Source: Escherichia phage FEC19
Reading direction: 5' to 3' (one strand)
DNA length: 64,000 nt
Sequence record: MH816966
Of this stretch, positions 16,359-37,762 are shown piece by piece. A model generated the notes under the pieces. It was not told the DNA's origin. It searched no databases and saw only the letters and a program-made list of their open reading frames with translations. The position numbers were made by a program, and so were the translations under genes. Within the stretch, counting starts at the first letter, position 1; every line of letters begins with the position of its first letter.

Positions 16359-16517
16359 TGTTGACGTAAATTTACGAAAAATAAAACTGAAAATCAGTTT
16401 AATTAAAGTGGCATCGCCGCCAGAGTTTTTAGTTGCTACTGGCGGCGACTGAAGGCATAATTAAGTTATCCCAAACGGGGAATATAAAATAAACTAATTT
16501 ATTTAAGGACTGTGAAT

Positions 16518-17357
16518 ATGGCCGAAGCAATCAAAGTATTATCTAAAGAAGAAAAACAAGCAGCTGCAGCAGAACGTCGTCGCGTGGCTGAAGAAAAACG
16601 CCTGGCTAAAAAGAAAGAAGCCGAAGAAAAACGCCAGAAGCGTGAGCAGGAAAAACAAGCCAAGCGTGAAGAAGCTGCGCTGAAACGCAAGCAGGCTGCT
16701 GATGAGAAGGCTCAGAAGCGTGCTGAAGAAGCAGCGAAGAAAGCCAAAGAGCGTGCAGAAAAGGCTGCTGCTAAGAAAGCAGAGCGTGAAGCCGCTAAAG
16801 CAGCAAAAGAAATCGAAAAGGCAAAGGCTAAAGAAGAAGCCAAGCGCCTGAAAGCTGAACAAGCTGCTGCTAAGAAAGCAGAGCGTGATCAAGCCCGTGC
16901 TGCAGCGAAGGCCGAAAAAGAGAAGGCCAAAGAAGAAGCTAAAGCGAAACGCAAGGCAGAGCGTGAAGCTGCTAAGATTGCGGCTAAAGAAGCTGCAGAA
17001 AAGCAGAAAGAACAGCGTAAGAAAGAAGCTGAAGAACGTCGCAAAGCCATCGCAGAACGTAAGGCTGCTAAAAAGGCAAACGGTCAGCGTCGTGCAAAAG
17101 CAACCCACTTCATCTACACTGGCAATGGCCTGAGCCAGCCGCAAGAGCATTCCACCCGTGGACGCGTTCTGGCGGCGATCAAAGAAGGCGAAGTTGGCGT
17201 GGCGCAGTCTATCGATGAGCTGGGCGAAAAAGTTAAAGATCAACTGTTTGGCGCTTCCGTTCGCTCCTACCTGAGCAAGCTGGAAGAGATGGGCCACATC
17301 GAGTTTGTCGATGTTGAATCCAACGAAGATGCCGAAGACGGTGATCAAGCGGAATAA
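16518..17357 (+). CDS. K/A/E-rich low-complexity charged-repeat protein with small globular C-terminal domain
   Basis: ~200 aa of AEEKR/AKKAER-type repeats; ATG at 16518 preferred over GTG at 16512 (AAGGA RBS). Confidence 0.55.
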   Translation: MAEAIKVLSKEEKQAAAAERRRVAEEKRLAKKKEAEEKRQKREQEKQAKREEAALKRKQAADEKAQKRAEEAAKKAKERAEKAAAKKAEREAAKAAKEIEKAKAKEEAKRLKAEQAAAKKAERDQARAAAKAEKEKAKEEAKAKRKAEREAAKIAAKEAAEKQKEQRKKEAEERRKAIAERKAAKKANGQRRAKATHFIYTGNGLSQPQEHSTRGRVLAAIKEGEVGVAQSIDELGEKVKDQLFGASVRSYLSKLEEMGHIEFVDVESNEDAEDGDQAE

Positions 17358-17384
17358 CCTTAGGACGGTTATGCAGCGGTAATT

Positions 17385-17411
17385 GACCCACACTTGTTGT
17401 GGGTCTTTTTT
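17385..17411 (+). terminator. intrinsic terminator
   Basis: gacccaca / tgtgggtc stem followed by tttttt. Confidence 0.7.
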
Positions 17412-17489
17412 CATCTGTACTAAATAAAATGACTTGTTGCTGTAAAATAATTTAGCTATTATACTTCTCATATCACCCACAAAGGACAA

Positions 17490-18485
17490 ATGAACATGAA
17501 ACAACCTGTAATGATTATCGGCGGCGGACTGGCAGGACTTATCACCGCGTGTCACTTCCCGAACTCTGTTGTGTACGAAGCAGGGGAACGAGCGCAACAG
17601 CACAAGGCGCTGCTACGCTTTCGCAGCGAAGAAGTAAGCCGTATTACCGGAATCCCTTTTAAGGCCGTGACAGTTGACAAGGCTGTGTATTTTCGCGGCA
17701 ACTACTATCACGACCATTGCCCAATCAACCTTGCCAATATGTATTCCATGAAGGTCACCAATCAATTTGGCAGCCGTTCAATCATGAAGCTTAAGACTGC
17801 AACGCGTTATATTGCGCCTGATGACTTTTATGATCAGCTTGTCGACAAACTGGGTGACCGCATATTCTTTGATACTCCGGTTGATACTCTTTGCGGCTAT
17901 AGCGAGACGCCAATCATCAACACGTCGCCGCTGCCAGTAATGATGAAGCTTGCTGGGATTGATCAAAAGCTTGATTTCTCATTTGATAAAGCAAACATTC
18001 GCGTTTACCGCTTTAAGATTAAACGTAAGTGTGATTTGTATCAGACAATTTACTTCCCTGACTACTCCGTCAGAACTTACCGCGCATCAATTACTGGTGA
18101 CACGCTTATCATTGAAACAATTCCTTTGGTCAGCGTGAGTGAAGCTGCAGTTGAAGCCGCTGGCGGCATCACTCGTTACCGTGACATGAAGCTGCGCGCA
18201 GAAGTCGACGAAGTGTTGACAGCCTTTGGCCTCTCATGGAGTGACATTGCTCTTGAAGAAGTTGAAAAGGTCGACCAGAAATATGGCAAGATTGTCGACA
18301 TTCCGAAAGACTTGCGACACGCCCTACTCCTGCAGCTGACTATGGATTTGAACGTGTTCAGTGTCGGTCGATTTGCTACCTGGCGCAACATTTTGCTTGA
18401 TGACGTTGCCCATGACCTTGTTGAAGTTGAAAAACTCATCAAAGCAAATAACTATCAAAAATTTGCTTATATTGCTAATAAATAA
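17490..18485 (+). CDS. FAD/NAD(P)-binding Rossmann-fold oxidoreductase
   Basis: N-terminal VMIIGGGLAGLITA (GxGxxG) followed by acidic residue. Confidence 0.55.
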   Translation: MNMKQPVMIIGGGLAGLITACHFPNSVVYEAGERAQQHKALLRFRSEEVSRITGIPFKAVTVDKAVYFRGNYYHDHCPINLANMYSMKVTNQFGSRSIMKLKTATRYIAPDDFYDQLVDKLGDRIFFDTPVDTLCGYSETPIINTSPLPVMMKLAGIDQKLDFSFDKANIRVYRFKIKRKCDLYQTIYFPDYSVRTYRASITGDTLIIETIPLVSVSEAAVEAAGGITRYRDMKLRAEVDEVLTAFGLSWSDIALEEVEKVDQKYGKIVDIPKDLRHALLLQLTMDLNVFSVGRFATWRNILLDDVAHDLVEVEKLIKANNYQKFAYIANK

Positions 18486-18550
18486 TTTGCTTTCTGCTTC
18501 AATGGGCGTATACTTTAATCATTGAAGCAGAACTCATAGAGGAAACGAAA

Positions 18551-18997
18551 ATGAAACGAATCACTGGAATCGCGCTTGCCGCTACTGCTATTCTCGGCAC
18601 CATGTATATGGAAGCGACTGAAGCTGCCATCCGTACTTCCGATTCAATCGCTGTTTACGATTGCGAAGCGATGGACGGCAAGACCTCAGCAACGACTGGT
18701 GCAAAGATTACCACTTACATCGGTGTGAACGAGCAAGAAGGTCTGAATATTCAGATTCAAGGATTCACAGGGAAAGGTACCAACCGTACTCCGTGGATGC
18801 AACGTTTCACTTTCGTCCAACCTCGTTCAACTGGCGACTTTATCAATCTGATTGGTGAAAACCGTTCTGGTGCAGAAATCTTTACATCAATGAGTTCTAA
18901 TAATGAACCAAAGAAAAGTTTTCAGTTGCTTTATAACGCACAATTCGTTTATCATTGCACCTTCTCTGGTGATCAGCAACTAGTGAATTACCGTTAA
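18551..18997 (+). CDS. hypothetical protein with N-terminal signal-peptide-like segment
   Basis: MKRITGIALAATAILGTMYMEA; preceded by 11-bp perfect inverted repeat flanking TATACT. Confidence 0.45.
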   Translation: MKRITGIALAATAILGTMYMEATEAAIRTSDSIAVYDCEAMDGKTSATTGAKITTYIGVNEQEGLNIQIQGFTGKGTNRTPWMQRFTFVQPRSTGDFINLIGENRSGAEIFTSMSSNNEPKKSFQLLYNAQFVYHCTFSGDQQLVNYR

Positions 18998-19010
18998 TAG
19001 GATAATTAAA

Positions 19011-19841
19011 ATGAAAGTTGAATTAATTCGATACACCCAAGATGCACTTGACCTTTTGCTGGAAACAAAGAACACGCGCATGACTGGTAAGCCTGTCTCT
19101 GAGATGACGGAATCAGAGAAGCAAGAGCATTGGCGCTACATGCTTGATACAATCAAGTCGCCTTTTGACTTTGTGGACTATATCTTTGACATCACCGATG
19201 TTTCAAAGAATATGACCCATCAGATGGTGCGCACACGCACAGGCGCATATCAAGAACGCACCAGCCGCGCTCAGGAGTCGTCTGCATTTGATGCGATTCG
19301 TCCGAAGGCATTCTCACACCAAAATCCAGAGTTGATTGATCAATGTGAAGCATTTGGGACTGATGAAGAGCACCAGTCTTTACTTCAAAAGCAATACTTA
19401 GCAGAGAAGTGGGATGATGCGATGGCGACTATCGATGTTTTGTATCAAGAGCTTCGCGCGGCTGGCGCAGAGATTCAAGATGCACGTGCCGTGTTGCCTT
19501 CTAATATGCAAACGCATATCATGGCAAAGTTCAACTTGCGCACGCTGCAACAGATGGCGTCAAACCGCTTGTGCACGCGCACTCAAGGCGAGTATCAAGA
19601 AGTATTCCGCGCGATGGTTGCTGAAGTCCTCAAGGTGCACCCGTGGGCAAATCCATTATTACAGCCGCAATGCATCGGTATGGGTAAATGCGCGTTTCCT
19701 CGTCATGGCAAAGCCCATTGCCCTTGGTATCGTGATTGGATGGATACCACGGCACAGCAAGAAGAGTTGCGCATCCAGTTTTGGAGTGCGATGCCAATCA
19801 CCAACAATCCAGTTGCTAAAGATGGAGTATCAAAAGGATGA
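19011..19841 (+). CDS. ThyX-like protein (flavin-dependent thymidylate synthase family), divergent
   Basis: Segment DITDVSKNMTHQMVRTRTGAYQERTSR resembles the ThyX RHR-x7/8-S region but with RTR; Cys/His-containing C-terminal extension. Confidence 0.5.
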   Translation: MKVELIRYTQDALDLLLETKNTRMTGKPVSEMTESEKQEHWRYMLDTIKSPFDFVDYIFDITDVSKNMTHQMVRTRTGAYQERTSRAQESSAFDAIRPKAFSHQNPELIDQCEAFGTDEEHQSLLQKQYLAEKWDDAMATIDVLYQELRAAGAEIQDARAVLPSNMQTHIMAKFNLRTLQQMASNRLCTRTQGEYQEVFRAMVAEVLKVHPWANPLLQPQCIGMGKCAFPRHGKAHCPWYRDWMDTTAQQEELRIQFWSAMPITNNPVAKDGVSKG

Positions 19842-20710
19842 GCATTAAAAACAGCGAAATCTTAAACGTATTCGACCTTGACGGAACGCTGTTTGATGAC
19901 CGTTGGCGCTTAGACCGCATCAAGGTGGCAGGTCCGTTGTCAGACTATGATGACTATCACAGCGGTATTGGTTATGATCAGTTCTATCCTCACATTGCAT
20001 CAGCAGTAGAGTCGGCATCTCTTCGCGGTGAGGCGGTTGAATATTGGACTGCAAGGCCAGAAAAATACAGACAAGTGACTTTTGAACGTCTGGATAATGT
20101 TTTTCCTTTTGATGAATTTACAATCAAGATGAGAGACTATGGCGACAAACGTCCATCAACTATTATGAAATCTGCATGGCTATCGCACGCATTGCGGCAC
20201 GGCGATTATCGAATCATCAATGTATTCGACGACCGACAAGACGTACTCGCGCGGATGCAAGATGAAGCATTGTATTATAATTCCGTTGCTCAAAATAAAA
20301 TCGCTTTTACATTTAATCTTTGCAAGGCAGGTGAAGTGGTGCAACAATTAGCAATTGATCCAAGCGCAACAGGGCAAGAAGAGACTAAGGCTGTGGAAGT
20401 TGAACAATCTCCGGCAACTGCCGCCGATATTCTTGATGCAATGGCAGCAACCTTCCGTGAGCGCAACGCTGTCTATGGTGATAACGCTGTGATGGTAGGT
20501 CAGGTTATGCAAGTGCTTTTCCCTAATGGCGTGACGTTGAAAACGCCGGAAGACTACCACATGTGGCATCTGTTCGAGCTTAAGATTGTCAAGCTTACAC
20601 GCTTCGCAATCAGCGGCCTGAAGCACGAAGACTCTATACACGATGATGGTGTTTACAGCGCCATGTGTGAACGTCTTGTTAACGCCCATAATATTAATTT
20701 CAATAAATAG
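19838..20710 (+). CDS. HAD-superfamily phosphatase with additional C-terminal domain
   Basis: VFDLDGTLFDD (DxDGT) and NVFDDRQD motifs; ~130-aa C-terminal region of unknown function. Confidence 0.55.
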   Translation: MSIKNSEILNVFDLDGTLFDDRWRLDRIKVAGPLSDYDDYHSGIGYDQFYPHIASAVESASLRGEAVEYWTARPEKYRQVTFERLDNVFPFDEFTIKMRDYGDKRPSTIMKSAWLSHALRHGDYRIINVFDDRQDVLARMQDEALYYNSVAQNKIAFTFNLCKAGEVVQQLAIDPSATGQEETKAVEVEQSPATAADILDAMAATFRERNAVYGDNAVMVGQVMQVLFPNGVTLKTPEDYHMWHLFELKIVKLTRFAISGLKHEDSIHDDGVYSAMCERLVNAHNINFNK

Positions 20711-20775
20711 TTTACTTGTGCGTTTCGATGAGTTATATTTATCTCATCGAAACGAAGTCCAAAAAGGATAAATAA

Positions 20776-21459
20776 ATGAAAAAAGTAATTGTTGTAACTG
20801 GCTGCAATTCCGGTCTTGGTAAATCCATTTTTGACACCCTTGGCGCTTACGGTCATGAAGTTGTCGGTATTGATTTGGAGAACGGCTATGACATCCGTAA
20901 CGCGAAACAGATGAAAGAGCTTCTCTCTCAATACGACGTAGAAGGCTTGATCAACTGCGCTGGCGTCAACTCCAACAACTGGTTCGAAGATGTTAACTAC
21001 GAAGAGTTCAATCGCGTTATGCACACCAACGCCTTCTCTTTCGTCAACACGACTCAGGCCGCGCTGAAAAGTCTTATCGACAACAAAGGTTTTGTGATCA
21101 ATATCGTTTCTAACGCTGCGCATATTCCTATGACGTCCAGCTTGTGTTATAATGCTTCCAAGGCTGCTGCGCTCATGATTAGCAAGCAGATGGCTCACGA
21201 GCTTACGCCTAAATACGGGATCACGGTATTCTCTATTAGTCCTAACAAGCTACGTGGTACTGGCATGTCCAAACAAATTGAAGATGCTGTTTGCGCGACT
21301 CGCGGCTGGACTCCTGAGTATGCTGCTGAATACCAGAAAAAGGCGTTGATGAATGGATTGGAGACTGAGCCGCAAGTAATTGCTGACTTCATTCGCCATA
21401 TCTTAATTACGGGCGCATGGCGCTTTATGTCTGGTACTGATATTCCATTTGGGAAATAA
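20776..21459 (+). CDS. short-chain dehydrogenase/reductase (SDR)
   Basis: VTGCNSGLGKS cofactor motif and YNASK catalytic motif. Confidence 0.8.
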   Translation: MKKVIVVTGCNSGLGKSIFDTLGAYGHEVVGIDLENGYDIRNAKQMKELLSQYDVEGLINCAGVNSNNWFEDVNYEEFNRVMHTNAFSFVNTTQAALKSLIDNKGFVINIVSNAAHIPMTSSLCYNASKAAALMISKQMAHELTPKYGITVFSISPNKLRGTGMSKQIEDAVCATRGWTPEYAAEYQKKALMNGLETEPQVIADFIRHILITGAWRFMSGTDIPFGK

Positions 21460-21462
21460 ATC

Positions 21463-21633
21463 ATGACTATCAAAGTTGTTGTAGAAGTGATTGGCGACGT
21501 GGCAGAAGTGAAGATTGATCAAGAAGGCGTTGGATTTGAAGTAATAAGAATCGAAAACGCAAAGATTAACCACGAGCGCGTCGGTTCAATTGAGACTTAT
21601 TCCATAGAAGGCAACACAGTAATTAATCAATAA
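21463..21633 (+). CDS. small hypothetical protein (56 aa, not in ORF track)
   Basis: Fills gap between SDR and VOC genes; weak RBS. Confidence 0.3.
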   Translation: MTIKVVVEVIGDVAEVKIDQEGVGFEVIRIENAKINHERVGSIETYSIEGNTVINQ

Positions 21634-21653
21634 TATTTAATTAAGGAAACAAA

Positions 21654-22205
21654 ATGCCACATTTTAAAATTGAACAAATCGCCCTGTCAATTCCAGATGC
21701 TCAGCGCGCACAGGATTTTCTGGCTAAAATCGGCCTGACAGAATGGTTCCATGATCATGTTGTTGCTACTGGTCGCGTATTTGAAGCTGATGACTTTAAA
21801 GGTCAGCGCGGCGATTGCACCAACGAAGCTGACTTGCGCTTCAACTATCAAGCTGGCAACGGCACCGATGGCGGCGCTGGTAAGCCTCTTGAACTTGAAA
21901 TTCTTGACTACACGAAAGGCCGCAACTGGATTAACGAAAACATCGAATACATCGATGCACATGACAATCAGGTTAGCCATCTTGGTATGCACGTGACTGC
22001 CGCTGAACTTGCTGAATGGCGCAAGTTCTTTAAAGAAGAAGGCATTCAGGTTGCGCAGGAAGTTGTGACCGACTCTCACACCAACCCAAACATTGCTGGT
22101 CAGCGTCGTTACAACTATGTGATCTTTGATACGCGTGAAATCATTGGTGTCGACCTTAAGTTCATCGTGCGGTTGAATCAAGACGGTACTCCGTACACTG
22201 TATAA
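21654..22205 (+). CDS. VOC-fold (glyoxalase/dioxygenase-like) protein, putative
   Basis: Two beta-alpha-beta-like modules with His residues (HFKIEQIALSIPD, SHLGMHV); weak. Confidence 0.4.
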   Translation: MPHFKIEQIALSIPDAQRAQDFLAKIGLTEWFHDHVVATGRVFEADDFKGQRGDCTNEADLRFNYQAGNGTDGGAGKPLELEILDYTKGRNWINENIEYIDAHDNQVSHLGMHVTAAELAEWRKFFKEEGIQVAQEVVTDSHTNPNIAGQRRYNYVIFDTREIIGVDLKFIVRLNQDGTPYTV

Positions 22206-22221
22206 CGAATCGTGAATCTGT

Positions 22222-22247
22222 GGCCGTCCTAATGGGCGGCCTTTTTG
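22222..22247 (+). terminator. intrinsic terminator
   Basis: ggccgtcc taat gggcggcc then ttttt. Confidence 0.6.
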
Positions 22248-22259
22248 TAGGAGGCCAAT

Positions 22260-22802
22260 GTGTTATTTCTCCCTTATGACTTCGAAACAACCGGATTAAC
22301 CGTGCACCCGAAAGCGCCGCTTGGAATGCAGCCGCGCCCTATTGAATTTGCAGGCCTGTTGACGGATGGAAAAGAGATTCTTGAAACTTTCGAGTTCATA
22401 ATTAATCCTGAAATTGTGATTGAAGAAATCATCACAAAGATTACCGGATTAACCAATGAAGACCTTGAGTGCAATCCACCCTTTATTCATTTCGTTCCGC
22501 AACTAAAAGACATCTTCAAGAAGACTGATGCCACTATCGCGCACAACCATGCGTTCGATAAGAACATCCTTGATTATGCATTGCAGCGCGAAGGTCTTAC
22601 ACTTGGTGATGTTAATTTTCCAGAAATAAACATTTGTACAGTCGAGCAAACCTTGCCTATTTTTGGCCGAAGAGTTAAGCTTCAAGAGCTGTATGAATTA
22701 TATTTCGGAAAATATGAACAGAAGCACCGTGCATTAGACGACGTAATATTACTGCACAAAGTCTGCCAACAAATTGGCGTATATGACATCTGGAGTAAAT
22801 AA
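22260..22802 (+). CDS. dnaQ: DnaQ-like 3'-5' proofreading exonuclease
   Basis: Exo I YDFETTG, Exo II AHNHAFD, Exo III HRALDD; GTG start with strong GGAGG RBS. Confidence 0.8.
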   Translation: MLFLPYDFETTGLTVHPKAPLGMQPRPIEFAGLLTDGKEILETFEFIINPEIVIEEIITKITGLTNEDLECNPPFIHFVPQLKDIFKKTDATIAHNHAFDKNILDYALQREGLTLGDVNFPEINICTVEQTLPIFGRRVKLQELYELYFGKYEQKHRALDDVILLHKVCQQIGVYDIWSK

Positions 22803-25699
22803 TGTTTCCACAATTGAGAGTTCGCAGCGGTTACACGTTCAAAGAAGTATATGGACGGCATCCTGAAATTATAGCACGGCTCAAAGAGTTGGGCTGCGAA
22901 GTCGCGGCATTAGTTGATAACAATACATGGGGTCACGTTCGCTGGGAAAAGGAATGCCAGAAAAATGATATTAAGCCTATGTTCGGCATGGAGATTCCAA
23001 TCATCGACCCTGATGCGGACCCGAAAAAGGGATTCAAACCGAAGGCTTGGATATTGGCGCTTGACCTGAAATCCTTTTACAATGCGACCACGCTTGCAAC
23101 ACAGCGCGGCGGATTGACCCGTGCAGAGTTCGGGGCGCTGGATGGCGTCGTTAAATTCTGTGGCGGTGCCGTGGAGCTGCTGCGGCCAGAGGACTACGAT
23201 TATATAGACGTCAACCCATCATCGTTCCTTTTGGCCAAGCGCCAGGTATTGGCTCACCGCAGCAACGGAAGGCCGCTGGTTTTAACCGGATACAACCACA
23301 TGCCTTCACCTGAGCACGTTGACTTTGCTTATGCTTGGGAAGTGCGCGACACGGTTAAGCCGCACTGCATCGTTGACGCGGAAGACTTGCGCAAACAGCT
23401 TAAAGGAATCCTGACCGAAGATGAGTTGAATCAAGCAACGGCCAATGCGGTTGATATTGCAAACGGAATCGTTGGGCTTGACCTGAAGCTGCGCAAGGCA
23501 CCGATTATCCACCTTGCTGGTGACATGGTAAAGCTTGCTCGTGAGGGGATGGAGTACCGCCTCAAAGCAGGTCACATCAAAGAATGGACGCAGGAATATG
23601 AGGACCGATTCAACGAAGAGATTCACCAGATTCAGCTGAAAGATTTCGACTCATACTTTCTGGTGGTAGCGGACCTTGTACGATTTGCAAAAACAAAAAT
23701 GCTCGTCGGACCCGCTCGCGGCTCATCGGCTGGTTCACTGGTTTGTTATTGCCTCGGCATCACGGAAGTTGACCCAATCCCGTATAAGCTGCTATTTGCC
23801 CGATTCATCGACGTAAGCCGCGCCGACCTCCCTGATATTGATATTGACTTTGAGGACACCAAACGCTATATGGTGTTTGATTACCTCAAAGAAAAATACG
23901 GCGAAATGAACGTTGCAAAGCTTGGAAACATCAACACGCTTAAGGCCAACTCAGTAATGGCTCAGGTTGGTAAGAAGTTCAACATTGGATATCACGAAAC
24001 GGCCAACATTAAAAACGCATTGCTTGAATACTCATCCGGTGACGCCCGTTATGGTCACGGTCTGGAGGATACCTTTGCAACAACGACCACGGGCCAAGAG
24101 TTCGTGGCGAAATATCCTGACGCCGCGCGATGCATGGGTGACCTTGAGATTCACCCTTCTCACACTGGCGTTCATGCAGCGGGAATCATTGTGTGTAATG
24201 ACCCAATCTCTGATTACTGTACTGTAACGGCGGAAGGGATTGCGCAAATTGATAAGCCTGACAGCGAATACCTTAACCTTTTGAAGCTTGATGCGTTGGG
24301 CCTTCGTACCCTCGGCATCATTTCTGATACTGGCGTGATAGATGCTGAAACGCTGTACGGAATCAAGCTTGATGATCAAAGCGTCCTTGACATCCTTAAC
24401 GAAAACAAAATGTCAGGCATCTTCCAGTTTGAAGGTGACGCTGTACGCTCAGTAACCAACTTTGTGCACGTTGATAACTTTAACAAAATCGATAACCTGA
24501 CAGCACTTGGTCGACCTGGCCCGTTGTCATCCGGTATGGCCCAAAAATACATCGAACGCGCGGCAGGACGTGCGCCGATTGAGTACGACGTGCCGCAGCT
24601 TGAGCCGTACTTAAAAGAGACTTACGGCGTGTTCCTTTACCAAGAGCAAATCATGGCCGTGGTTAAAGAGATTGGTTCATTTGACTGGGCGAAAACATCA
24701 GCCGTGCGTAAGGCGATGTCAGGTCGTAAGGGTGAGGAATACTTTAACAAGCTTGGCGAAGACTTCGTTGCAGGCGCAATAAATAACGGCGTACCGGAAG
24801 CGGATGCAAGAAAGCTTTGGCAGGCGATGGCGACGTTCGGGTCATGGGGCTTTAACAAGTCACACTCCGTGTCATACGCGGTCGTAACCTACTGGACCTT
24901 GTGGCTTAAACGACACTACCCGTTGGAATTTGCCGCTGCTTGCTTACGCGCTGCTAAGGACGAAGACCAGACGATTGCGATATTACGTGAACTTGCGAAG
25001 GAAGGCGTGGATTATGTGCCAATCGACCCTGATCACTCTTCAATGAACTGGACCATCGCTAACGGAAAGCTAATCGGCGGCATCATGAACGCTAAAGGGT
25101 ACGGAATGGTGAAGGCGATGAAGTACATCGAAGCACGTGAAGCCGGAACCTTAACGCAAAAGCAGAAGGATGCATTGGCCAATGCTGAAGTCAAATACGG
25201 CGACCTTACAGAGATGCACACCAAGTTCGGCTGGGCATATAATGACCCATATCTTATTGGCGTCACTTCCGGCGCTTCAATACGCCAGATGAAGGAAGTA
25301 GGCGATGATGAGCGTGCAATAGTAATCGGCAAACTGACCAAGAAAGTGCTGGCAGACGAGAACGAAGCAACACGCATCCGTAAACGTCTTGAGCGCGGCA
25401 TTTACACAAAGCACGGCAAACTTAAAAAGGGTCTTCAAGCTGATGGTCGCTACGCAGAGTTTGACCAGTATGGAAACAAGCTTGAAACTCAATTCATCGA
25501 CCTTATGTGCAAGGACGATTCGACCGACTCGCCAATGCGCTTCAGGATTCGCCCAGAGAAGTTCCAGAAATACGGGAAGTACATTGCAGAGAACGTCGGG
25601 AACGGTGCATTCTTCCTGATGAAAGGCCGCAAGCTTGAAGGTATTGATATGTTCATCGTCGACGTTATCAAACAGGTGTATCCAGATGGCAACAAATAA
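22802..25699 (+). CDS. dnaE: DNA polymerase III alpha-like (DnaE family, PHP N-terminus)
   Basis: N-terminal LRVRSGYTF PHP-like start, PDIDIDFED catalytic aspartates, LLKLDALGLRTL motif; 965 aa. Confidence 0.85.
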   Translation: MFPQLRVRSGYTFKEVYGRHPEIIARLKELGCEVAALVDNNTWGHVRWEKECQKNDIKPMFGMEIPIIDPDADPKKGFKPKAWILALDLKSFYNATTLATQRGGLTRAEFGALDGVVKFCGGAVELLRPEDYDYIDVNPSSFLLAKRQVLAHRSNGRPLVLTGYNHMPSPEHVDFAYAWEVRDTVKPHCIVDAEDLRKQLKGILTEDELNQATANAVDIANGIVGLDLKLRKAPIIHLAGDMVKLAREGMEYRLKAGHIKEWTQEYEDRFNEEIHQIQLKDFDSYFLVVADLVRFAKTKMLVGPARGSSAGSLVCYCLGITEVDPIPYKLLFARFIDVSRADLPDIDIDFEDTKRYMVFDYLKEKYGEMNVAKLGNINTLKANSVMAQVGKKFNIGYHETANIKNALLEYSSGDARYGHGLEDTFATTTTGQEFVAKYPDAARCMGDLEIHPSHTGVHAAGIIVCNDPISDYCTVTAEGIAQIDKPDSEYLNLLKLDALGLRTLGIISDTGVIDAETLYGIKLDDQSVLDILNENKMSGIFQFEGDAVRSVTNFVHVDNFNKIDNLTALGRPGPLSSGMAQKYIERAAGRAPIEYDVPQLEPYLKETYGVFLYQEQIMAVVKEIGSFDWAKTSAVRKAMSGRKGEEYFNKLGEDFVAGAINNGVPEADARKLWQAMATFGSWGFNKSHSVSYAVVTYWTLWLKRHYPLEFAAACLRAAKDEDQTIAILRELAKEGVDYVPIDPDHSSMNWTIANGKLIGGIMNAKGYGMVKAMKYIEAREAGTLTQKQKDALANAEVKYGDLTEMHTKFGWAYNDPYLIGVTSGASIRQMKEVGDDERAIVIGKLTKKVLADENEATRIRKRLERGIYTKHGKLKKGLQADGRYAEFDQYGNKLETQFIDLMCKDDSTDSPMRFRIRPEKFQKYGKYIAENVGNGAFFLMKGRKLEGIDMFIVDVIKQVYPDGNK

Positions 25700-29497: not shown

Positions 29498-30016
29498 ATG
29501 ATAGAAAGAATTGTACCGCTCTTGAAGATTCTGGCCCTTGTTGGCGCGTTTGCCGCTGGATCATACGTTGAAGACCTGCAGCAAACCAACGCATCACTGG
29601 CCAAGGATAATCAATATCTGACATCGCTTAATGAGCGTAAGGACAAGATAAATGCACTCGAAGAGCAAATTGCATCTTTACAGGTTGAATCGGCATCGGC
29701 ATATGAGAAAGGTCGCCAGGAAGCGCAACTGGTTGCTGATGACACTATTGCTCGTTACAAGTCTGGGAATATCAAGTTGCGCGCGCAACTCAGCTGCTCC
29801 CGTGAGTTACTCAGGAGTATGCCCGACTCTGCGACCACTGGACGCCTCTCTATCCCAGAAGGAAACTGTGGACTATCAGAAGAAGATGTCAGTTTTCTTG
29901 TTCAGTTCGCCGCAGAAACAAATCGATTAAAAGAGAAAGTTAATAGCTTGATTGATACTTATAATCAGGCTAAAATAAAAATCGATCAATTCAATGCATC
30001 AAAGGAAAATAAATGA
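29498..30016 (+). CDS. Rz-like i-spanin, putative
   Basis: N-terminal TM segment, coiled-coil periplasmic region, NIKLRAQLSC resembling the Rz RRRLHIKAVC region. Confidence 0.45.
   Translation: MIERIVPLLKILALVGAFAAGSYVEDLQQTNASLAKDNQYLTSLNERKDKINALEEQIASLQVESASAYEKGRQEAQLVADDTIARYKSGNIKLRAQLSCSRELLRSMPDSATTGRLSIPEGNCGLSEEDVSFLVQFAAETNRLKEKVNSLIDTYNQAKIKIDQFNASKENK
29739..29930 (+). CDS. Rz1-like o-spanin embedded in +1 frame of the Rz-like gene, putative
   Basis: MTLLLVTSLGISSC lipobox-like signal then short Pro-containing mature part with second Cys. Confidence 0.4.
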   Translation: MTLLLVTSLGISSCARNSAAPVSYSGVCPTLRPLDASLSQKETVDYQKKMSVFLFSSPQKQID

Positions 30017-30636
30017 AACAGATTTATGCAAACATTCGCCAGTGGGCTTCTGACCGTAACATCATCCAAGGTTGCGACCTTAAGGACCAATACCCGAAGC
30101 TTATCAGCGAGTTCGGGGAGTTAACCGACCACGTTGATCAACTCCATGACCTTGTGTTCTTCGACCCTGAAATTGGATATACAGAGCAAGCCATCTGTGA
30201 CTTGCAGGCAGCAATTAAGGACGACATCGGCGATTGCCTTGTTGTGTTGACCATCCTGGCGGCGCAAAACGGTACTGAAATCGAAAACATTAATGGCGGC
30301 GGTTGTGCTGATAAAGGCGCTCACCCTCATTCATTCATCCTTCGCCTGGCAAAGACCCTTGGACGGCTTGGTGATGCTATTGCTAAGAATCAGACCATGG
30401 ATATTGACGTCACCATCATGGCCGCAGTCGATTACCTTTCCGGCGTAGCTCATGATTATGGCCTTCGCTTATCCGACTGTGCGCAAGCGGCCTACGAAGA
30501 CATCAAGGACCGCAAAGGTGTCATGTACAACGGAACGTTCATCAAATCTACTGATCCAGCTTATGAGCACTCCTGCAAAATGGTAAAGAAGCTGGAACTT
30601 GAAGACCGTGTGATCAGAGAAGTTACAGGACAATAA
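30013..30636 (+). CDS. mazG: MazG-like nucleotide pyrophosphohydrolase
   Basis: LISEFGELTDHV and DDIGDCLVVLTILA resemble MazG EExxE / metal-binding helices. Confidence 0.55.
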   Translation: MKQIYANIRQWASDRNIIQGCDLKDQYPKLISEFGELTDHVDQLHDLVFFDPEIGYTEQAICDLQAAIKDDIGDCLVVLTILAAQNGTEIENINGGGCADKGAHPHSFILRLAKTLGRLGDAIAKNQTMDIDVTIMAAVDYLSGVAHDYGLRLSDCAQAAYEDIKDRKGVMYNGTFIKSTDPAYEHSCKMVKKLELEDRVIREVTGQ

Positions 30637-35023: not shown

Positions 35024-37762
35024 CTACACGATGTATTTAATTTTTGATAAAAGGGTTGATGCCCAATCACCAGTTAAGTCAGTTATGTTCATGCTTGAAA
35101 CATAACCACCAGCAGCACTTCTCGGAAAGTTTACTGTTGCTACAACATCACCATTAGAAGCAATCAATTGAATTCCAGTGGCAAGTGATCCTGGGTTTTT
35201 GATGTATATAGAAGTCGCAGTTTTCTTTGCGAAATCTTCGCTTGTTGAAATTGCAAGCGCATTCATCGTACTACCAGACACAAGCATCAAGCTTAAAATA
35301 TCAAGTTCAAGAGTCGTACCAACTTCGGTCGGCAAGTCTTTCCCTGATATCAAACCGATGCTGATGCCGCCTGTCGATCCATCCCAGGTAGAGCCTTCAA
35401 CAATCTCAGCGGCAAGGTCAATTTCGATACGTTGCAAATCACCTGCGCCTATGTTGTAGAATTTAGGGATATAGCCACCCATCCCATCCGGTACAGTTAC
35501 AAAAAGTTTTTGACCGTTAACCGTGTTGTTTTTGACTATTGCGATAAACGACAAAGGGCCAGTCAGGGTGCCAGTGTATTTAGTAGCAAGTACAGCGCGT
35601 GCATAACCGGACGCTGGCACAGTCCCTATTGTAGCGGAAAGCTTGAATGATGGGAACTGGTTGGGCACACCGCTGATTGGCGTCGCTGTGACAGTGTTTA
35701 CGCCATCCTCAATGATATTGCCAAAAGATGTACCGTCGTTTGGCTGTGTGTAGCGCCAATAGTTAGTGATTGCCGTGCGTGGTATTTCACGACCAAAGTC
35801 ATCTCTTGATGCTTTTGAGATTGAATAGTCGTTGACAAGCGCGCCGTCGACGACCTGGTTCACACCTTTCAAAGATTCAAGCTGGCGTATCACACCGTTG
35901 AAGTTGTTCAGCGGCCACTCGTTAATGCCGCCAACTCTGATGATACCGTCAGTGTTAATCCACGCAACACCTTCCGTTTCAAATCCTACGCGCGTGTCTG
36001 TTATGTCGCTGACAGTCAAATCGATATCAGATAAGTCTGCGACTTCTTGGTAAAGCTGCCATCGTATTCCGGCATTTGCTGGCAAGAATCCTTCATTCCT
36101 GTCGCCAACTAGCGTCTTAAAGTTGTCAGACAGGTTGTTGGCGAAATAAGGTCCGATGACGTATTCCATGTAATAGTCGGCGGTCGGAGGCGGCGGTACT
36201 CCATCCAGCCTGCTAACGTTCCATGAGCGTCTGATTCCATCAGTCTCTGCAATCAGCGTGGCGTTCCCTGGGTACGGGTAGCCGCCGATTGAGCCAGAGT
36301 ATGCAAGTGATGAGCCAGGTTGCATGAATGACTCGCCAACTACACCGTTTCTTGTCGTCAGCGGTCCGTTTGCACAGGAGATGTTATTGAGCGTTCCCGC
36401 CGTTACAGACAGGATTGCTGTTCCGTCAGAAGGAGGGTTTTGCGTTCCATAAAAATAAGGCTCAGGCCCATTTGGATTCTGAACAGGGTCGCAGACGCAA
36501 ATCGAGTATCCAAACAAAAGGGCATCAGACCCTTCAGGCAATTCACGAGTTTGAGTTGATCCAGCGGCAGTCGCCTTCAACTCTATTGAAAAGCTGGTAC
36601 TTACTCCAGAAGCAGCGGTTGCCGTCTGCTCTACAATCCAGATTCGATACCAATCGCCGCCAATTGCTTTTATGCCACCACGGTTTGATTCCCTTCTTAC
36701 TCCATCGAATTTGCCTTTGATGAAATAGCTCAATGACGGGTCCAAGTTGAACTGGCCAGTGACGGGGTCAAACAGCTTTCCATTACTCGATGCATCACTA
36801 TTCTCTGTAACAGAAACAGAAGCGACGTTTTCAGAAAGCACCTTTATGTAGAAGCTATAGCAAACGTTGACGCCAGCCTGCGAAGGAAGCGAAATTGATT
36901 TGGCACTTGGATTATTGGCCAAAGAATACACAGGCTCACCGCTTGAAGCCGTCTTGATGACCCTTACTGCGTTGGCAAAATTCTCTATGGCCTCGCCTGG
37001 GTAATCGCCACACAACTGCCCATAGTAATCAGGCCCACCATACTGTCTGGTATCGCCGCCGACAAGCCCTGCGCCGGAACCATTTCCCCATGAGTACCAA
37101 TCTGGGTGCGCCATCCGTGACACGGTGCCTGACACTCCGCTGATGGTCAGCCCGGCGTTGTTGCCATGGCTTAAAAGTATCTGCTTATAATCATGCTGAA
37201 TCTCAGTTGACCCCTGCCAGTCGTACAGAAGGAATGAGCCATTGGTTGATTCAGACGAAGACACCGCGCCTTGAGTATTGTCGGTCACATATGCGTAGCG
37301 TGATGAAGAGTAATCCCAAGACTCTCCACGGTTGAAAATCCACTTAAGCATGCGGTTGATACTTTCGATGCGGCCATCACTTGTAAGCGTCAGATAACGA
37401 AGCTTAAGAAGTATGCGCGCTTCTTCGATATTCTTTACAACCTTCCCGCCAGCACCAAAGAAGTTGCCGCCGATGTTGTCCGCACCTTCAAAGTTGTCGC
37501 GCGTCGGTCCAAACGCCCAGTTGTGCTCATAATTGCTTAAGTCCACAAAGTCTCTTGGTATGCAAAGAATGTCGCACCAAATATAAATTCCCATTGCATC
37601 ACAAGTGTCAATGTTAAAAATGTTATTGTACCAGTCAGTCCAAAACTGATCTTGGTATCTTTCATACCAGTCACTTTTCTTTTGCACCAAAGATGTAATG
37701 TTTGGTGCATTGTTCTGCATCCACTTAAGGTTTTGCAACAGGTTTGTGTCAAACTTTTGCAT
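35024..37762 (-). CDS. large tail/baseplate-associated structural protein
   Basis: 912-aa ORF within tail module. Confidence 0.5.
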   Translation of the reverse strand: MQKFDTNLLQNLKWMQNNAPNITSLVQKKSDWYERYQDQFWTDWYNNIFNIDTCDAMGIYIWCDILCIPRDFVDLSNYEHNWAFGPTRDNFEGADNIGGNFFGAGGKVVKNIEEARILLKLRYLTLTSDGRIESINRMLKWIFNRGESWDYSSSRYAYVTDNTQGAVSSSESTNGSFLLYDWQGSTEIQHDYKQILLSHGNNAGLTISGVSGTVSRMAHPDWYSWGNGSGAGLVGGDTRQYGGPDYYGQLCGDYPGEAIENFANAVRVIKTASSGEPVYSLANNPSAKSISLPSQAGVNVCYSFYIKVLSENVASVSVTENSDASSNGKLFDPVTGQFNLDPSLSYFIKGKFDGVRRESNRGGIKAIGGDWYRIWIVEQTATAASGVSTSFSIELKATAAGSTQTRELPEGSDALLFGYSICVCDPVQNPNGPEPYFYGTQNPPSDGTAILSVTAGTLNNISCANGPLTTRNGVVGESFMQPGSSLAYSGSIGGYPYPGNATLIAETDGIRRSWNVSRLDGVPPPPTADYYMEYVIGPYFANNLSDNFKTLVGDRNEGFLPANAGIRWQLYQEVADLSDIDLTVSDITDTRVGFETEGVAWINTDGIIRVGGINEWPLNNFNGVIRQLESLKGVNQVVDGALVNDYSISKASRDDFGREIPRTAITNYWRYTQPNDGTSFGNIIEDGVNTVTATPISGVPNQFPSFKLSATIGTVPASGYARAVLATKYTGTLTGPLSFIAIVKNNTVNGQKLFVTVPDGMGGYIPKFYNIGAGDLQRIEIDLAAEIVEGSTWDGSTGGISIGLISGKDLPTEVGTTLELDILSLMLVSGSTMNALAISTSEDFAKKTATSIYIKNPGSLATGIQLIASNGDVVATVNFPRSAAGGYVSSMNITDLTGDWASTLLSKIKYIV

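What the first reader, a model, noticed from the sequence alone, without database searches (positions are those of the whole stretch)
17490..22205. Enzyme cluster that may specify a nucleotide or DNA modification pathway
Between the SF1 helicase and the DnaQ/DnaE pair lie genes for a FAD/NAD(P)-binding oxidoreductase, a signal-peptide protein, a divergent ThyX-like protein, a HAD phosphatase with an extra C-terminal domain, an SDR, a small ORF, and a VOC-fold protein, with a MazG-like pyrophosphohydrolase further downstream. Phage clusters that combine a thymidylate-synthase homologue with redox and phosphatase enzymes are known to build non-canonical or hypermodified pyrimidines, but this combination (ThyX-type rather than ThyA-type, plus SDR and VOC) does not match the described pathways as far as I can recall.
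Basis: partly seen in the sequence, partly recalled or inferred. Interest (0 to 1): 0.8.

Follow-up and report, generated by a model that had tools for sequence, protein, structure and literature searches.

The report
Candidate phage thymine-hypermodification gene module
A terminator-bracketed enzyme cluster in this E. coli Wifcevirus phage is the best candidate for the still-unknown pathway that attaches a sugar-like group to thymines next to guanines in phage DNA, which would explain why these phages resist most restriction enzymes.

Summary
The seven ORFs at 17490-22205 exist as described and sit between two terminator-like hairpins.

**What the module is**
- The window is a Wifcevirus, an E. 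coli myovirus.
- The conserved core is a UGM/PPO-fold flavoprotein, a divergent ThyX and a HAD phosphatase, here fused to DUF6378. An SDR+VOC pair is an all-or-none add-on.
- The core is syntenic, directly upstream of DnaQ-DnaE, in about 360 GenBank phages and 80 IMG/VR loci.
- The signal-peptide protein and the 56-aa ORF are Wifcevirus-only inserts.

**Why it points to DNA modification**
- Pbunaviruses carry the core. A 2025 preprint found that their DNA has sugar-type hypermodified thymidine at TG, about a quarter of T, with no biosynthetic genes assigned.
- Wifceviruses resist all tested RM systems except EcoP1_I "without any known genome protection mechanism".
- I found no ThyA-type hydroxymethylase, 5-HMUDK, AADT, TET/JBP or glycosyltransferase.

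**New sequence evidence**
- GATC is tolerated almost only as TGATC: 111 of 113 sites, p about 1e-28.
- EcoRI and EcoRV sites are also T-flanked. EcoP1_I sites are not.
- The rule recurs in module-carrying phages of Enterobacterales. One is an unrelated podovirus that shares only the flavoprotein, ThyX, DnaQ and DnaE with this phage.
- Lambda lacks the rule; T7-likes show only a slight T enrichment.

The link from genes to modification is inferred, not shown.

The parts
17385..17405 (+). Terminator-like hairpin closing the upstream K/A/E-rich gene; it forms the 5' boundary of the cluster.
   Evidence: 8-bp stem with 5 GC pairs followed by a T-run. A terminator is annotated at the same place in phage Mansfield.
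17490..18485 (+). UGM/PPO-fold FAD-type flavoprotein (331 aa). It is the signature gene of the module and the prime candidate for the modification-specific step.
18551..18997 (+). 148-aa protein with a signal peptide. It is a Wifcevirus-only insert in the variable slot between the flavoprotein and ThyX, and is probably not part of the pathway.
   Evidence: It has no family hits. It is absent from all non-Wifcevirus loci.
19011..19841 (+). Divergent ThyX (Thy1 family). In every locus examined it is encoded after the flavoprotein gene.
   Evidence: Pfam Thy1 6.6e-29. It falls below the NCBIfam thyX equivalog cut-off. R78, R80, R90, R147, R165 and R174 are invariant, but H79 is T/S/N, Y91 is V/A/I, H178 is R and H53 is lost in 69 of 69 family members. 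ThyX is present in 50 of 50 loci.
19838..20710 (+). HAD (PNKP-type) phosphatase fused to a DUF6378 three-helix domain. Its start overlaps the ThyX stop by 4 nt.
20776..21459 (+). Classical SDR oxidoreductase. It is an accessory tailoring candidate that co-varies with VOC.
   Evidence: adh_short 1e-31. The TGxxxGxG and YxxxK motifs are read directly from the sequence. SDR and VOC occur together in 34 of 50 loci, with a single exception. Both are absent from Pbunavirus and Ss1.
21463..21633 (+). 56-aa ORF of unknown function. It is confined to some Wifceviruses.
   Evidence: It has no hits. It is found only in L007 and L009.
21654..22205 (+). VOC-like protein (glyoxalase/dioxygenase superfamily, weak match). 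It is an accessory tailoring candidate.
   Evidence: Glyoxalase_4 E 8e-4, below the gathering threshold. The family is conserved, with invariant H109 and H113.
22222..22241 (+). Terminator-like hairpin forming the 3' boundary of the cluster.
   Evidence: 8-bp stem with 7 GC pairs followed by TTTTT. A terminator is annotated here in Mansfield.
22260..25699 (+). DnaQ-like exonuclease and DnaE-type polymerase. They lie immediately downstream and always co-segregate with the module.
   Evidence: They are present in 48 of 50 loci. Full-length DnaE relatives occur in 375 records, close to the number of records that carry the module genes. Together with the flavoprotein and ThyX they are the only non-structural proteins shared with podovirus Ss1.
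30013..30636 (+). MazG-like pyrophosphohydrolase.
   Evidence: phrog_1992 3e-62; Pfam MazG is weak. It is not found next to the module in other loci.

Best explanation
The conserved core of this cluster is the genetic basis of a context-specific thymine hypermodification of virion DNA. The core is the UGM-fold flavoprotein, the ThyX variant and the HAD phosphatase (fused to DUF6378 in most lineages). It is expressed with the phage DnaQ/DnaE replication genes. The modification would be the same kind of sugar or polyol adduct on T in 5'-TG-3' that was found chemically in Pbunavirus F8 and 14-1. In Wifcevirus the SDR+VOC pair probably tailors the side chain further by redox or isomerisation, so the final nucleoside may differ from the Pbunavirus ones.

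The modified T protects restriction or nicking sites that contain or abut TG. These include GATC, EcoRI, EcoRV and EcoKI sites, but not EcoP1_I sites.

**Shown here**
- The gene families, the synteny and co-occurrence, and the absence of known thymidine-hypermodification enzymes.
- The T-flank site signature and its co-segregation with the flavoprotein, ThyX, DnaQ and DnaE.

**Taken from papers**
- The chemistry in Pbunavirus and the RM phenotype of Wifcevirus.

**Inferred**
- That Wifcevirus DNA is modified at all.
- That these genes do it.
- The division of labour: ThyX provides the C5 one-carbon or activated pyrimidine, the flavoprotein handles the sugar/polyol or the DNA-level TG-specific step, and HAD removes a phosphate from a sugar-phosphate or nucleotide intermediate.
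For: 1. **Relatives are modified.** Pbunaviruses carry homologues of the flavoprotein (38-42% identity), ThyX (about 49%) and HAD-DUF6378 in the same order upstream of DnaQ/DnaE. F8 and 14-1 virion DNA contains thymidine derivatives of 362 and 390 Da. These replace about a quarter of T in a TG motif, and the family lacks known modification genes. In the window 26.8% of T are followed by G.
3. **Module conservation.** ThyX is present in 50 of 50 loci, DUF6378 in 48 and HAD in 45. The HAD and DUF6378 parts are fused in 45 loci and split in 21. SDR and VOC are all-or-none. The three core genes occur in nearly the same number of GenBank records (360, 363, 370), with matching genus counts.
4. **No rival machinery.** No ThyA-type hydroxymethylase, P-loop 5-HMUDK, AADT, TET/JBP or glycosyltransferase appears among 36 window proteins scanned or in curated annotations.
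5. **GATC site signature.** There are 113 GATC sites against 247 expected. The 5'-T frequency is 0.73 against a background of 0.31, which makes GATC the top outlier of all 256 4-mers (p 3e-37). Only 2 sites lack a T flank on both strands where 54 would be expected (p 1e-28). The bias is confined to position -1 and holds in all codon phases.
6. **RM site flanks.** 12 of 13 EcoRI sites and 7 of 7 EcoRV sites are T-flanked (p 0.003 and 0.011). All 3 EcoKI sites contain TG. The 78 EcoP1_I sites contain no TG and have unbiased flanks. This matches the published phenotype.
7. **Same GATC rule in other module-carrying phages of Enterobacterales.** 5'-T frequencies are 0.88 in Pantoea Kyle, 0.55 in Serratia MTx and 0.82 in Cronobacter podovirus Ss1, which has 0 of 51 sites without a T flank. 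The rule is absent in lambda (0.29). It is only slight in 1.6 Mb of T7-like loci (0.38, with 38% of sites unflanked).
8. **Co-segregation.** Ss1 shares with this phage only the flavoprotein, ThyX, DnaQ, DnaE and a piece of tail fibre.
Against: - There are no chemical data for any Wifcevirus, and no in-vitro restriction data were found.
- No experiment links any of these genes to the Pbunavirus modification.
- F8 and 14-1 make different adducts although their modules have the same gene content at 90-94% nucleotide identity. The side-chain determinant may therefore lie elsewhere or in point differences.
- TG specificity requires a DNA-level, sequence-reading enzyme, and none of the module proteins has a recognisable DNA-binding or base-flipping domain.
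- The variant ThyX motif also occurs in actinophage ThyX-like genes that have no flavoprotein partner.
- The module is inseparable from DnaE/DnaQ in the data. Comparative genomics therefore cannot tell whether the trait depends on the enzymes, on the polymerase, or on both.
- The T-flank signature is indirect. Only lambda, T7-likes and 9 kb of E. coli served as negative controls.
Confidence: 0.55

Rival explanations
1. The modification is real, but this cluster is not what determines it. Wifcevirus DNA carries a TG-context modification, yet the specificity or chemistry is supplied by unrecognised proteins elsewhere, or by the DnaE/DnaQ replicase itself. The cluster would only supply nucleotides: ThyX makes dTMP, HAD and DUF6378 balance the pools, and the flavoprotein, SDR and VOC are auxiliary metabolic genes.
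For: - The module cannot be separated from DnaE/DnaQ.
- F8 and 14-1 make different adducts with the same module gene content.
- No DNA-binding domain is seen in the module proteins.
- Many small hypothetical genes remain unassigned.
- The variant ThyX is also found with DnaE-like polymerases in actinophages that lack the flavoprotein.
Against: - Ss1 and Wifcevirus share no other detectable proteins. A hidden determinant would have to be beyond the reach of BLAST in both phages.
- The flavoprotein is strongly conserved (about 60 invariant positions) and strictly coupled to ThyX in 50 of 50 loci, with no role in canonical dNTP synthesis.
Confidence: 0.2
2. Ordinary nucleotide metabolism with no DNA modification in Wifcevirus. 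A divergent but functional ThyX, a nucleotidase and unrelated auxiliary enzymes feed very fast replication. RM resistance would come from site composition or from unknown anti-restriction proteins.
For: - ThyX keeps all the dUMP- and flavin-contacting arginines.
- ThyX and HAD phosphatases are common in phages.
- Wifceviruses are reported to replicate extremely fast.
- General hexamer-palindrome avoidance is just as strong in unmodified lambda and T7.
Against: - It does not explain the flavoprotein, SDR and VOC.
- It does not explain resistance to EcoRI and EcoRV despite 13 and 7 sites.
- It does not explain the position -1 T rule at GATC, EcoRI and EcoRV sites, which lambda and T7-likes lack.
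- Homologous Pbunaviruses are chemically modified.
Confidence: 0.15
3. The cluster works in sugar or envelope metabolism. A UGM-like mutase, an SDR and a secreted protein would remodel a host nucleotide-sugar or the O-antigen, for example for superinfection exclusion. These phages use O-antigen as their receptor.
For: - The closest fold is UDP-galactopyranose mutase, and Mansfield annotates the gene that way.
- The SDR resembles sugar dehydrogenases.
- A signal-peptide protein sits inside the cluster.
- The receptor is O-antigen.
Against: - There is no glycosyltransferase.
- The flavoprotein gives no GLF Pfam hit. The region between residues 110 and 160 is much reduced, and the UGM flavin-proximal His motif is replaced.
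- The secreted protein is a Wifcevirus-only insert.
- The module is tied to ThyX and the replicase in phages of very different hosts.
- The phages are virulent.
Confidence: 0.05

Closest known systems
Pbunavirus (F8, 14-1) TG-specific thymidine hypermodification (Yee et al. 2025 preprint, PMC12191111)
   Same: The core genes are homologous: flavoprotein, ThyX variant and HAD-DUF6378, in the same order upstream of DnaQ/DnaE. Both groups resist restriction. The fraction of T in TG context, 27%, matches the reported quarter of T replaced. 14-1 also shows T-flank enrichment at GATC and GTAC.
   Different: No genes have been assigned in Pbunavirus, so the 'family' is defined only chemically. Wifcevirus adds SDR+VOC and may make a different adduct. 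The T-flank rule is far stronger in Wifcevirus. Wifcevirus DNA has not been analysed chemically.
5-hmdU-derived thymidine hypermodification pathways (M6, ViI, PhiW-14, SP10, PaMx11; Lee et al. 2018/2021)
   Same: Both give partial, context-dependent replacement of T by a bulky C5 derivative that blocks restriction. Both involve a thymidylate-synthase-type enzyme located with the replication genes. A DNA-acting flavoenzyme exists in PaMx11.
   Different: Those pathways need a ThyA-type dUMP hydroxymethylase, a P-loop 5-hmdU DNA kinase and an amino-acid:DNA transferase, and they append amino acids or polyamines. None of these genes is present here. The TS homologue here is ThyX-type. By analogy with Pbunavirus, the adduct is a sugar or polyol.
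Flavin-dependent thymidylate synthase ThyX (T. maritima TM0449, PBCV-1 A674R)
   Same: It has the Thy1 fold and a Pfam hit. The arginines that bind dUMP and polarise uracil are invariant.
   Different: The signature RHR...SxRY reads R-T-R...T-S-R-A. H53, H79, Y91 and H178 are never conserved in the 69-member subfamily. The protein scores below the NCBIfam equivalog cut-off. Some members carry a Cys-rich C-terminal extension.
UDP-galactopyranose mutase (Glf/UGM)
   Different: There is no sequence-level hit to GLF models or to PDB chains. PPOs score almost as well. The protein is shorter, with only two short helices where (from my own knowledge) UGM has a five-helix uridine-binding domain. The His-rich flavin-proximal motif is replaced by HKALLRFR.
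Glycosylated 5-hydroxycytosine / 5hmC systems (RB69, DLP3, RL38J1, T4)
   Same: These also put sugar-type adducts on a pyrimidine C5 substituent. A flavin-using TS homologue makes the handle, and a bona fide phage UGM occurs in RL38J1.
   Different: Those systems act on cytosine, replace it completely, use ThyA homologues and have dedicated glycosyltransferases. None of these features is seen here.

Membership tests
ThyX (flavin-dependent thymidylate synthase) | Thy1/ThyX fold recognised by the family HMM | tested here: met
   Pfam PF02511 E 6.6e-29, 101.5 bits against a cut-off of 24.8.
ThyX (flavin-dependent thymidylate synthase) | ThyX signature motif RHRxxSxxxxSxRY | tested here: not met
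   The window protein reads RTRTGAYQERTSRA. Across 69 module ThyX sequences H79 is T/S/N and Y91 is V/A/I in every case, and S88 is mostly T. Canonical phage ThyX from Bacillus and Clostridium phages keeps RHR...SQRY.
ThyX (flavin-dependent thymidylate synthase) | Score above the NCBIfam equivalog cut-off (TIGR02170) | tested here: not met
   78.8 bits against a cut-off of 87.9.
ThyX (flavin-dependent thymidylate synthase) | Arginines that bind the dUMP phosphate and polarise uracil (Tm R78, R80, R90, R147, R174) | tested here: met
   All are invariant in 69 of 69 sequences.
ThyX (flavin-dependent thymidylate synthase) | Converts dUMP + CH2-H4folate + NADPH to dTMP | not testable with these tools
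   This needs an enzyme assay or complementation of a thyA mutant.
UDP-galactopyranose mutase | Recognised by the GLF family model or by sequence similarity to solved UGMs | tested here: not met
   No Pfam or NCBIfam hit. A profile search of PDB sequences finds only the dinucleotide-binding motif at E > 0.1. hhalign against E. coli Glf gives 3.9% probability.
UDP-galactopyranose mutase | UGM three-domain fold | tested here: inconclusive
UDP-galactopyranose mutase | Interconverts UDP-pyranose and UDP-furanose | not testable with these tools
   This needs an enzyme assay.
5-hmdU-derived thymidine hypermodification pathway (Lee et al.) | ThyA-type dUMP hydroxymethylase | tested here: not met
   No Thymidylat_synt hit among 36 window proteins. 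The only TS homologue is ThyX-type.
5-hmdU-derived thymidine hypermodification pathway (Lee et al.) | 5-hmdU DNA kinase (P-loop) and amino-acid:DNA transferase (aGPT-Pplase) | tested here: not met
   Neither is detected by Pfam or PHROGs in the scanned proteins or in the Mansfield annotation. ORFs shorter than about 100 aa were not all scanned.
Base-J-like route (TET/JBP thymine dioxygenase + glycosyltransferase) | TET_JBP dioxygenase and a glycosyltransferase | tested here: not met
   No such Pfam hits.
Pbunavirus-type TG thymidine hypermodification | Non-canonical thymidine derivative in virion DNA replacing about a quarter of T | not testable with these tools
   This needs LC-MS of virion DNA. 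No published data were found for Wifcevirus.
Pbunavirus-type TG thymidine hypermodification | Protection confined to sites that contain or abut TG | tested here: inconclusive
   The evidence is indirect. GATC, EcoRI and EcoRV sites are almost always T-flanked, while EcoP1_I sites are not. This matches the RM phenotype. It is consistent with the feature but is not a measurement of modification.
Pbunavirus-type TG thymidine hypermodification | Shares the gene set conserved in Pbunavirus | tested here: met
   The flavoprotein, ThyX, HAD-DUF6378, DnaQ and DnaE are homologous and syntenic with 14-1 and F8.
HAD phosphatase superfamily | Family HMM above threshold and the DxDxT nucleophile motif | tested here: met
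   HAD_PNKP scores 33.5 against 27.6. The sequence contains FDLDGTL and FDDRQD.
Classical SDR | TGxxxGxG cofactor motif and S...YxxxK catalytic residues | tested here: met
   adh_short 1e-31. VTGCNSGLG and YNASK are present in the sequence and conserved across 43 homologues.
VOC (glyoxalase/bleomycin-resistance/dioxygenase) superfamily | Family HMM above the gathering threshold | tested here: inconclusive
   Glyoxalase_4 scores 20.1 bits against 27, E 8e-4. No structure prediction was run for this protein.

The most novel reading that the evidence does not exclude
The module encodes a previously undescribed, flavin-only route to sugar- or polyol-substituted thymine. It would work without a ThyA-type hydroxymethylase, a DNA kinase, an AADT, a TET enzyme or a glycosyltransferase.

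ThyX and UGM are the two textbook enzymes that work through covalent flavin-N5 iminium adducts. ThyX uses a one-carbon unit and UGM uses the open-chain C1 of a sugar. Their strict pairing here suggests that a sugar or sugar-phosphate aldehyde is carried on reduced flavin. It would then be joined to C5, or to the C5 methylene, of a uracil nucleotide or of T in TpG DNA.

HAD would then remove the sugar phosphate, and SDR/VOC would tailor the chain. My own arithmetic shows that a C-linked 1-deoxypentitol on dU has the F8 mass of 362.33. The F8 and 14-1 adducts differ by exactly CO (28 Da).

The modified T at the scissile N^GATC step would also make these phages immune to whatever counter-selects GATC in Dam+ hosts (MutH or MboI-type cleavage).
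Probability: 0.18. Interest if true: 0.92.

Novelty: new variant of a known kind. Interest (0 to 1): 0.8.

Why it matters
- **An open biosynthetic question.** Pbunaviruses are among the most used therapeutic Pseudomonas phages. Their DNA hypermodification was recognised only in 2025, and its biosynthesis is unassigned.
- **A short, testable gene list.** The module is conserved and widespread, with about 2000 homologues of the signature flavoprotein. This gives experimenters a flavoprotein, ThyX, HAD-DUF6378 and an optional SDR+VOC pair to test.
- **Wider reach.** The trait would extend to E. coli, Serratia, Pantoea, Cronobacter, Xanthomonas and many uncultured phages.
- **New chemistry.** If confirmed, this would be a new enzymatic logic for C5-pyrimidine hypermodification, ThyX-type and flavin-based.
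- **An explanation for phenotype.** It would account for the unexplained RM resistance of Wifcevirus.
- **A screening tool.** The T-flank rule at GATC offers a purely computational way to spot TG-modified phages.
- **Practical consequences.** It bears on phage therapy host range (RM and END nucleases), on cloning and sequencing of these phages, and on new DNA-modifying enzymes.

Tried and rejected
1. **General palindrome argument.** Twenty of 64 hexamer palindromes occur 0-1 times, and none of them contains TG or TT. This looked like a modification signature. Lambda and T7 show the same contrast, so it is not specific. I kept only the GATC, EcoRI and EcoRV position -1 rule, which the controls lack.
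2. **F8 versus 14-1.** I compared the two modules to find a gene explaining the tetritol versus pentose adducts. They are collinear at 90-94% identity with no gene-content difference.
3. **Flavoprotein as a true UGM.** Sequence searches against PDB and hhalign against E. coli Glf gave nothing. Only the fold and one C-terminal motif are similar.
5. **ThyX divergence as evidence of neofunctionalisation.** This was weakened because actinophage ThyX-like proteins share the variant motif without the flavoprotein. The Cys motif also occurs in a canonical Clostridium-phage ThyX.
6. **Literature.** I searched for in-vitro restriction data on Wifcevirus DNA and for any paper assigning genes to the Pbunavirus modification. 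None was found.
7. **Other candidate readings.** SDR as a FolM-like dihydrofolate reductase has no support in NCBIfam. MazG as part of the module fails because the gene is not syntenic elsewhere.

Full report
**Identity and anatomy**

The window is a Wifcevirus, an E. coli/Shigella myovirus of about 68-72 kb. The finding region is 93-98% identical to 27 GenBank Wifcevirus records. Seven + strand ORFs lie between a RecD-like helicase plus a K/A/E-rich protein upstream and DnaQ/DnaE downstream. They are bracketed by strong terminator-like hairpins at 17385-17405 and 22222-22241, which are annotated as terminators in phage Mansfield.

- The 331-aa protein has GxGxxG and no sequence-family hit apart from the function-unknown phrog_4828.
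- ThyX is a Thy1-family member (6.6e-29).
- The 290-aa protein is a HAD_PNKP phosphatase with an extra C-terminal domain.
- The 227-aa protein is a classical SDR.
- The 183-aa protein gives only a sub-threshold VOC hit.
- MazG-like lies at 30013-30636.

**The flavoprotein**

A C-terminal motif, GRFATWRNILLDDV, resembles E. coli Glf GRLAEYKYYDMHQV. However, the His-rich flavin-proximal motif is replaced by HKALLRFR and the middle helical region is much reduced. It is therefore a UGM/PPO-fold flavoprotein, not a demonstrable mutase.

The family has 1955 unannotated homologues, about 60 invariant positions and about a dozen conserved Arg/Lys residues. That suggests an anionic substrate.

**ThyX**

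Compared with T. maritima ThyX, the arginines that bind dUMP and polarise uracil (R78, R80, R90, R147, R165, R174) are invariant in 69 module-associated sequences. In contrast, H79 is T/S/N, Y91 is V/A/I, H178 is R and H53 is lost in every one. The protein also scores below the NCBIfam thyX equivalog cut-off.

Actinophage 'ThyX-like' proteins share this variant motif without any flavoprotein partner, whereas Bacillus and Clostridium phage ThyX are canonical. The divergence is therefore real, but it is not specific to this module.

**HAD-DUF6378**

The HAD domain has intact DxDxT and DD motifs. The C-terminal 100 aa belongs to DUF6378, and stand-alone homologues are 65-72% identical. It is the best conserved part of the protein across lineages. 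The two parts are fused in 45 loci and encoded as adjacent genes in 21. The model is a three-helix bundle with conserved His, Asp and Glu, and it has no informative structural neighbour.

**Conservation**

By tblastn, the flavoprotein is found in 360 phage records, the ThyX variant in 363 (at least 80% coverage) and the HAD protein in 370. The genus counts match: Pseudomonas 292/292/293, Escherichia 25, Serratia 9, Rhizobium 8-10, Xanthomonas 6.

I examined 80 IMG/VR loci plus GenBank loci. Fifty of them have at least 6 kb downstream of the flavoprotein gene. Among those 50:
- ThyX is present in 50.
- DUF6378 is present in 48 and HAD in 45.
- DnaQ and DnaE are present in 48.
- SDR and VOC occur together in 34, and one occurs without the other only once.

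Pbunaviruses and Cronobacter podovirus Ss1 have the core without SDR/VOC. The signal-peptide protein and the 56-aa ORF are Wifcevirus-only.

**Literature**
- Yee et al. (bioRxiv 2025, PMC12191111) showed that Pbunavirus F8 and 14-1 DNA resists enzymes whose sites contain TG.
- Their DNA contains thymidine derivatives of 362 Da ('erythrose/threose sugar alcohol derivative') and 390 Da ('circularized aldopentose derivative'), replacing about a quarter of T.
- The authors stress that the family lacks known modification genes. The paper never mentions a thymidylate synthase.
- I found no paper assigning genes to the modification and no chemical data for Wifcevirus.
- Known thymidine hypermodification needs a ThyA-type hydroxymethylase, a 5-hmdU DNA kinase and an amino-acid:DNA transferase. 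None of these, and no TET/JBP or glycosyltransferase, is detectable in 36 window proteins or in curated annotations.

**A sequence-level test**

I first noticed that the 20 hexamer palindromes occurring 0-1 times all lack TG and TT. Lambda and T7 show the same contrast, so I discarded that argument.

A specific signal survives.
- GATC is depleted: 113 sites against 247 expected.
- It is preceded by T at frequency 0.73 against a background of 0.31. This is the strongest 5'-T bias among all 256 4-mers (p 3e-37).
- Only 2 sites lack a T flank on both strands, where 54 would be expected (p 1e-28).
- 53 sites are TGATCA.
- The bias is confined to position -1 and holds in all three codon phases.

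The published RM phenotype fits the same rule.
- EcoRI sites are T-flanked in 12 of 13 cases.
- EcoRV sites are T-flanked in 7 of 7 cases.
- The three EcoKI sites contain TG.
- The 78 EcoP1_I sites contain no TG and have unbiased flanks.

That is the pattern reported: resistant to the tested RM systems, sensitive only to EcoP1_I.

The GATC rule recurs in module-carrying phages of Enterobacterales. The 5'-T frequencies are:
- Mansfield 0.65-0.78
- Pantoea Kyle 0.88
- Serratia MTx 0.55
- An IMG/VR relative (L036) 0.63
- Cronobacter podovirus Ss1 0.82, with 0 of 51 sites unflanked (p 1e-22)

It is weak in module carriers of Xanthomonas, Rhizobium and Pseudomonas. From my own knowledge, those hosts lack Dam/MutH. 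It is absent in lambda (0.29). It is only slight in 1.6 Mb of T7-like loci (0.38, with 38% of sites unflanked).

Ss1 shares with this phage only the flavoprotein, ThyX, DnaQ, DnaE and a tail-fibre fragment. Its orf32 is a weak HAD fused to DUF3310. The trait therefore co-segregates with this small gene set and does not need SDR/VOC.

The following is inference, drawing on my own knowledge. MutH and MboI-type enzymes cut N^GATC, so a bulky T at position -1 sits at the scissile step. One protected strand would be enough to prevent a double-strand break, which fits 'at least one T flank'.

**Mechanism**

The most likely reading (about 0.55) is that the core module specifies a TG-context thymine hypermodification of the Pbunavirus type, and that SDR+VOC tailor the side chain in Wifcevirus. 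The division of labour is inferred.
- ThyX would supply the C5 one-carbon or activated pyrimidine.
- The flavoprotein would handle the sugar/polyol or the DNA-level step.
- HAD would remove a phosphate.

Several weaknesses remain.
- None of the module proteins has a recognisable DNA-reading domain.
- F8 and 14-1 make different adducts with identical gene content.
- The module cannot be separated from DnaE/DnaQ.
- No chemistry exists for Wifcevirus.

The rivals are as follows:
- The modification is real but determined elsewhere (0.2).
- The cluster is ordinary nucleotide metabolism and there is no modification (0.15).
- The cluster works in envelope-sugar metabolism (0.05).

**Novelty**

The kind of system, a phage DNA hypermodification cluster, is known. 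This gene set and its implied flavin-based chemistry are not described, and the biosynthesis of the Pbunavirus modification is an open question that this module makes directly testable. The GATC T-flank rule appears to be a new observation, and it is usable as an in-silico marker.

Noticed in passing
whole window (113 GATC sites; the two exceptions are at 35376 and 40665): GATC is tolerated almost only when preceded by T on at least one strand: 111 of 113 sites, 53 of them TGATCA. The bias is confined to position -1 and is seen in all codon phases. The same rule holds in module-carrying phages of Pantoea, Serratia and Cronobacter. It is absent in lambda and only slight in T7-likes.
   Followed up: yes
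whole window: Hexamer palindromes are avoided to an extreme degree. Twenty of 64 occur 0-1 times (expected 10-18), including XbaI, BglII, BamHI, XhoI, SacI, NheI and SmaI sites. AAGCTT (51) and TGATCA (53) are about three-fold over-represented. The TG/TT contrast among palindromes is also present in lambda and T7, so it is not specific to this phage.
   Followed up: yes
window 16512-17357 (+), with an overlapping antisense ORF at 16539-17603 (-): A 281-aa Lys/Ala/Glu-rich low-complexity protein (phrog_4765) has a globular C-terminal part. It is conserved upstream of the module in PB1-like phages but not in other module carriers. The 354-aa antisense ORF is probably an artefact of the repeat composition.
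   Followed up: partly
window 19011-19841, residues about 185-245; also L088, L090, L091: ThyX carries a four-Cys pattern (RLC...CxxxxxC...C) in a C-terminal extension. The same pattern occurs in actinophage ThyX-like proteins and in a canonical Clostridium-phage ThyX. It may be a metal site. It is absent from about half of the module ThyX sequences.
   Followed up: partly
P0121-P0240; loci L033-L086: DUF6378 exists mostly as a stand-alone protein of about 96-100 aa. These are 65-72% identical to the window domain and occur on roughly 40-kb, partly marine, viral contigs. The domain is far better conserved than the HAD domain it is fused to here.
   Followed up: partly
L088, L091 (Mycobacterium phage Aikoy, Gordonia phage NovaSharks); Actinophages pair the same variant ThyX-like protein (R-S/Q-R, no RY) with DnaE-like polymerases but have no flavoprotein. 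This suggests an old ThyX-DnaE replication module to which the flavoprotein was later added in phages of Gram-negative hosts.
   Followed up: partly
L092+L004 (Pseudomonas phage 14-1): In this chemically TG-modified phage, GTAC (5'-T 0.43 against 0.22) and GATC (0.32 against 0.22) are also enriched for a 5' T. TGATCA occurs 29 times, against 0-2 for the other NGATCN palindromes.
   Followed up: partly
L051 (IMG/VR 3300000968_000017): This module-carrying contig has a single GATC in 16.9 kb where 66 are expected, and that one is TGATCA.
   Followed up: no
window 29498-30016 and 29652-29930: A nested i-spanin/o-spanin pair sits among the replication and nucleotide genes, directly upstream of MazG and ligase and far from the endolysin (per the Mansfield annotation).
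   Followed up: no
whole window: CAGCAG (the EcoP15I-type site) occurs 72 times against 25 expected. BsaI GGTCTC occurs once against 27 expected.
   Followed up: no
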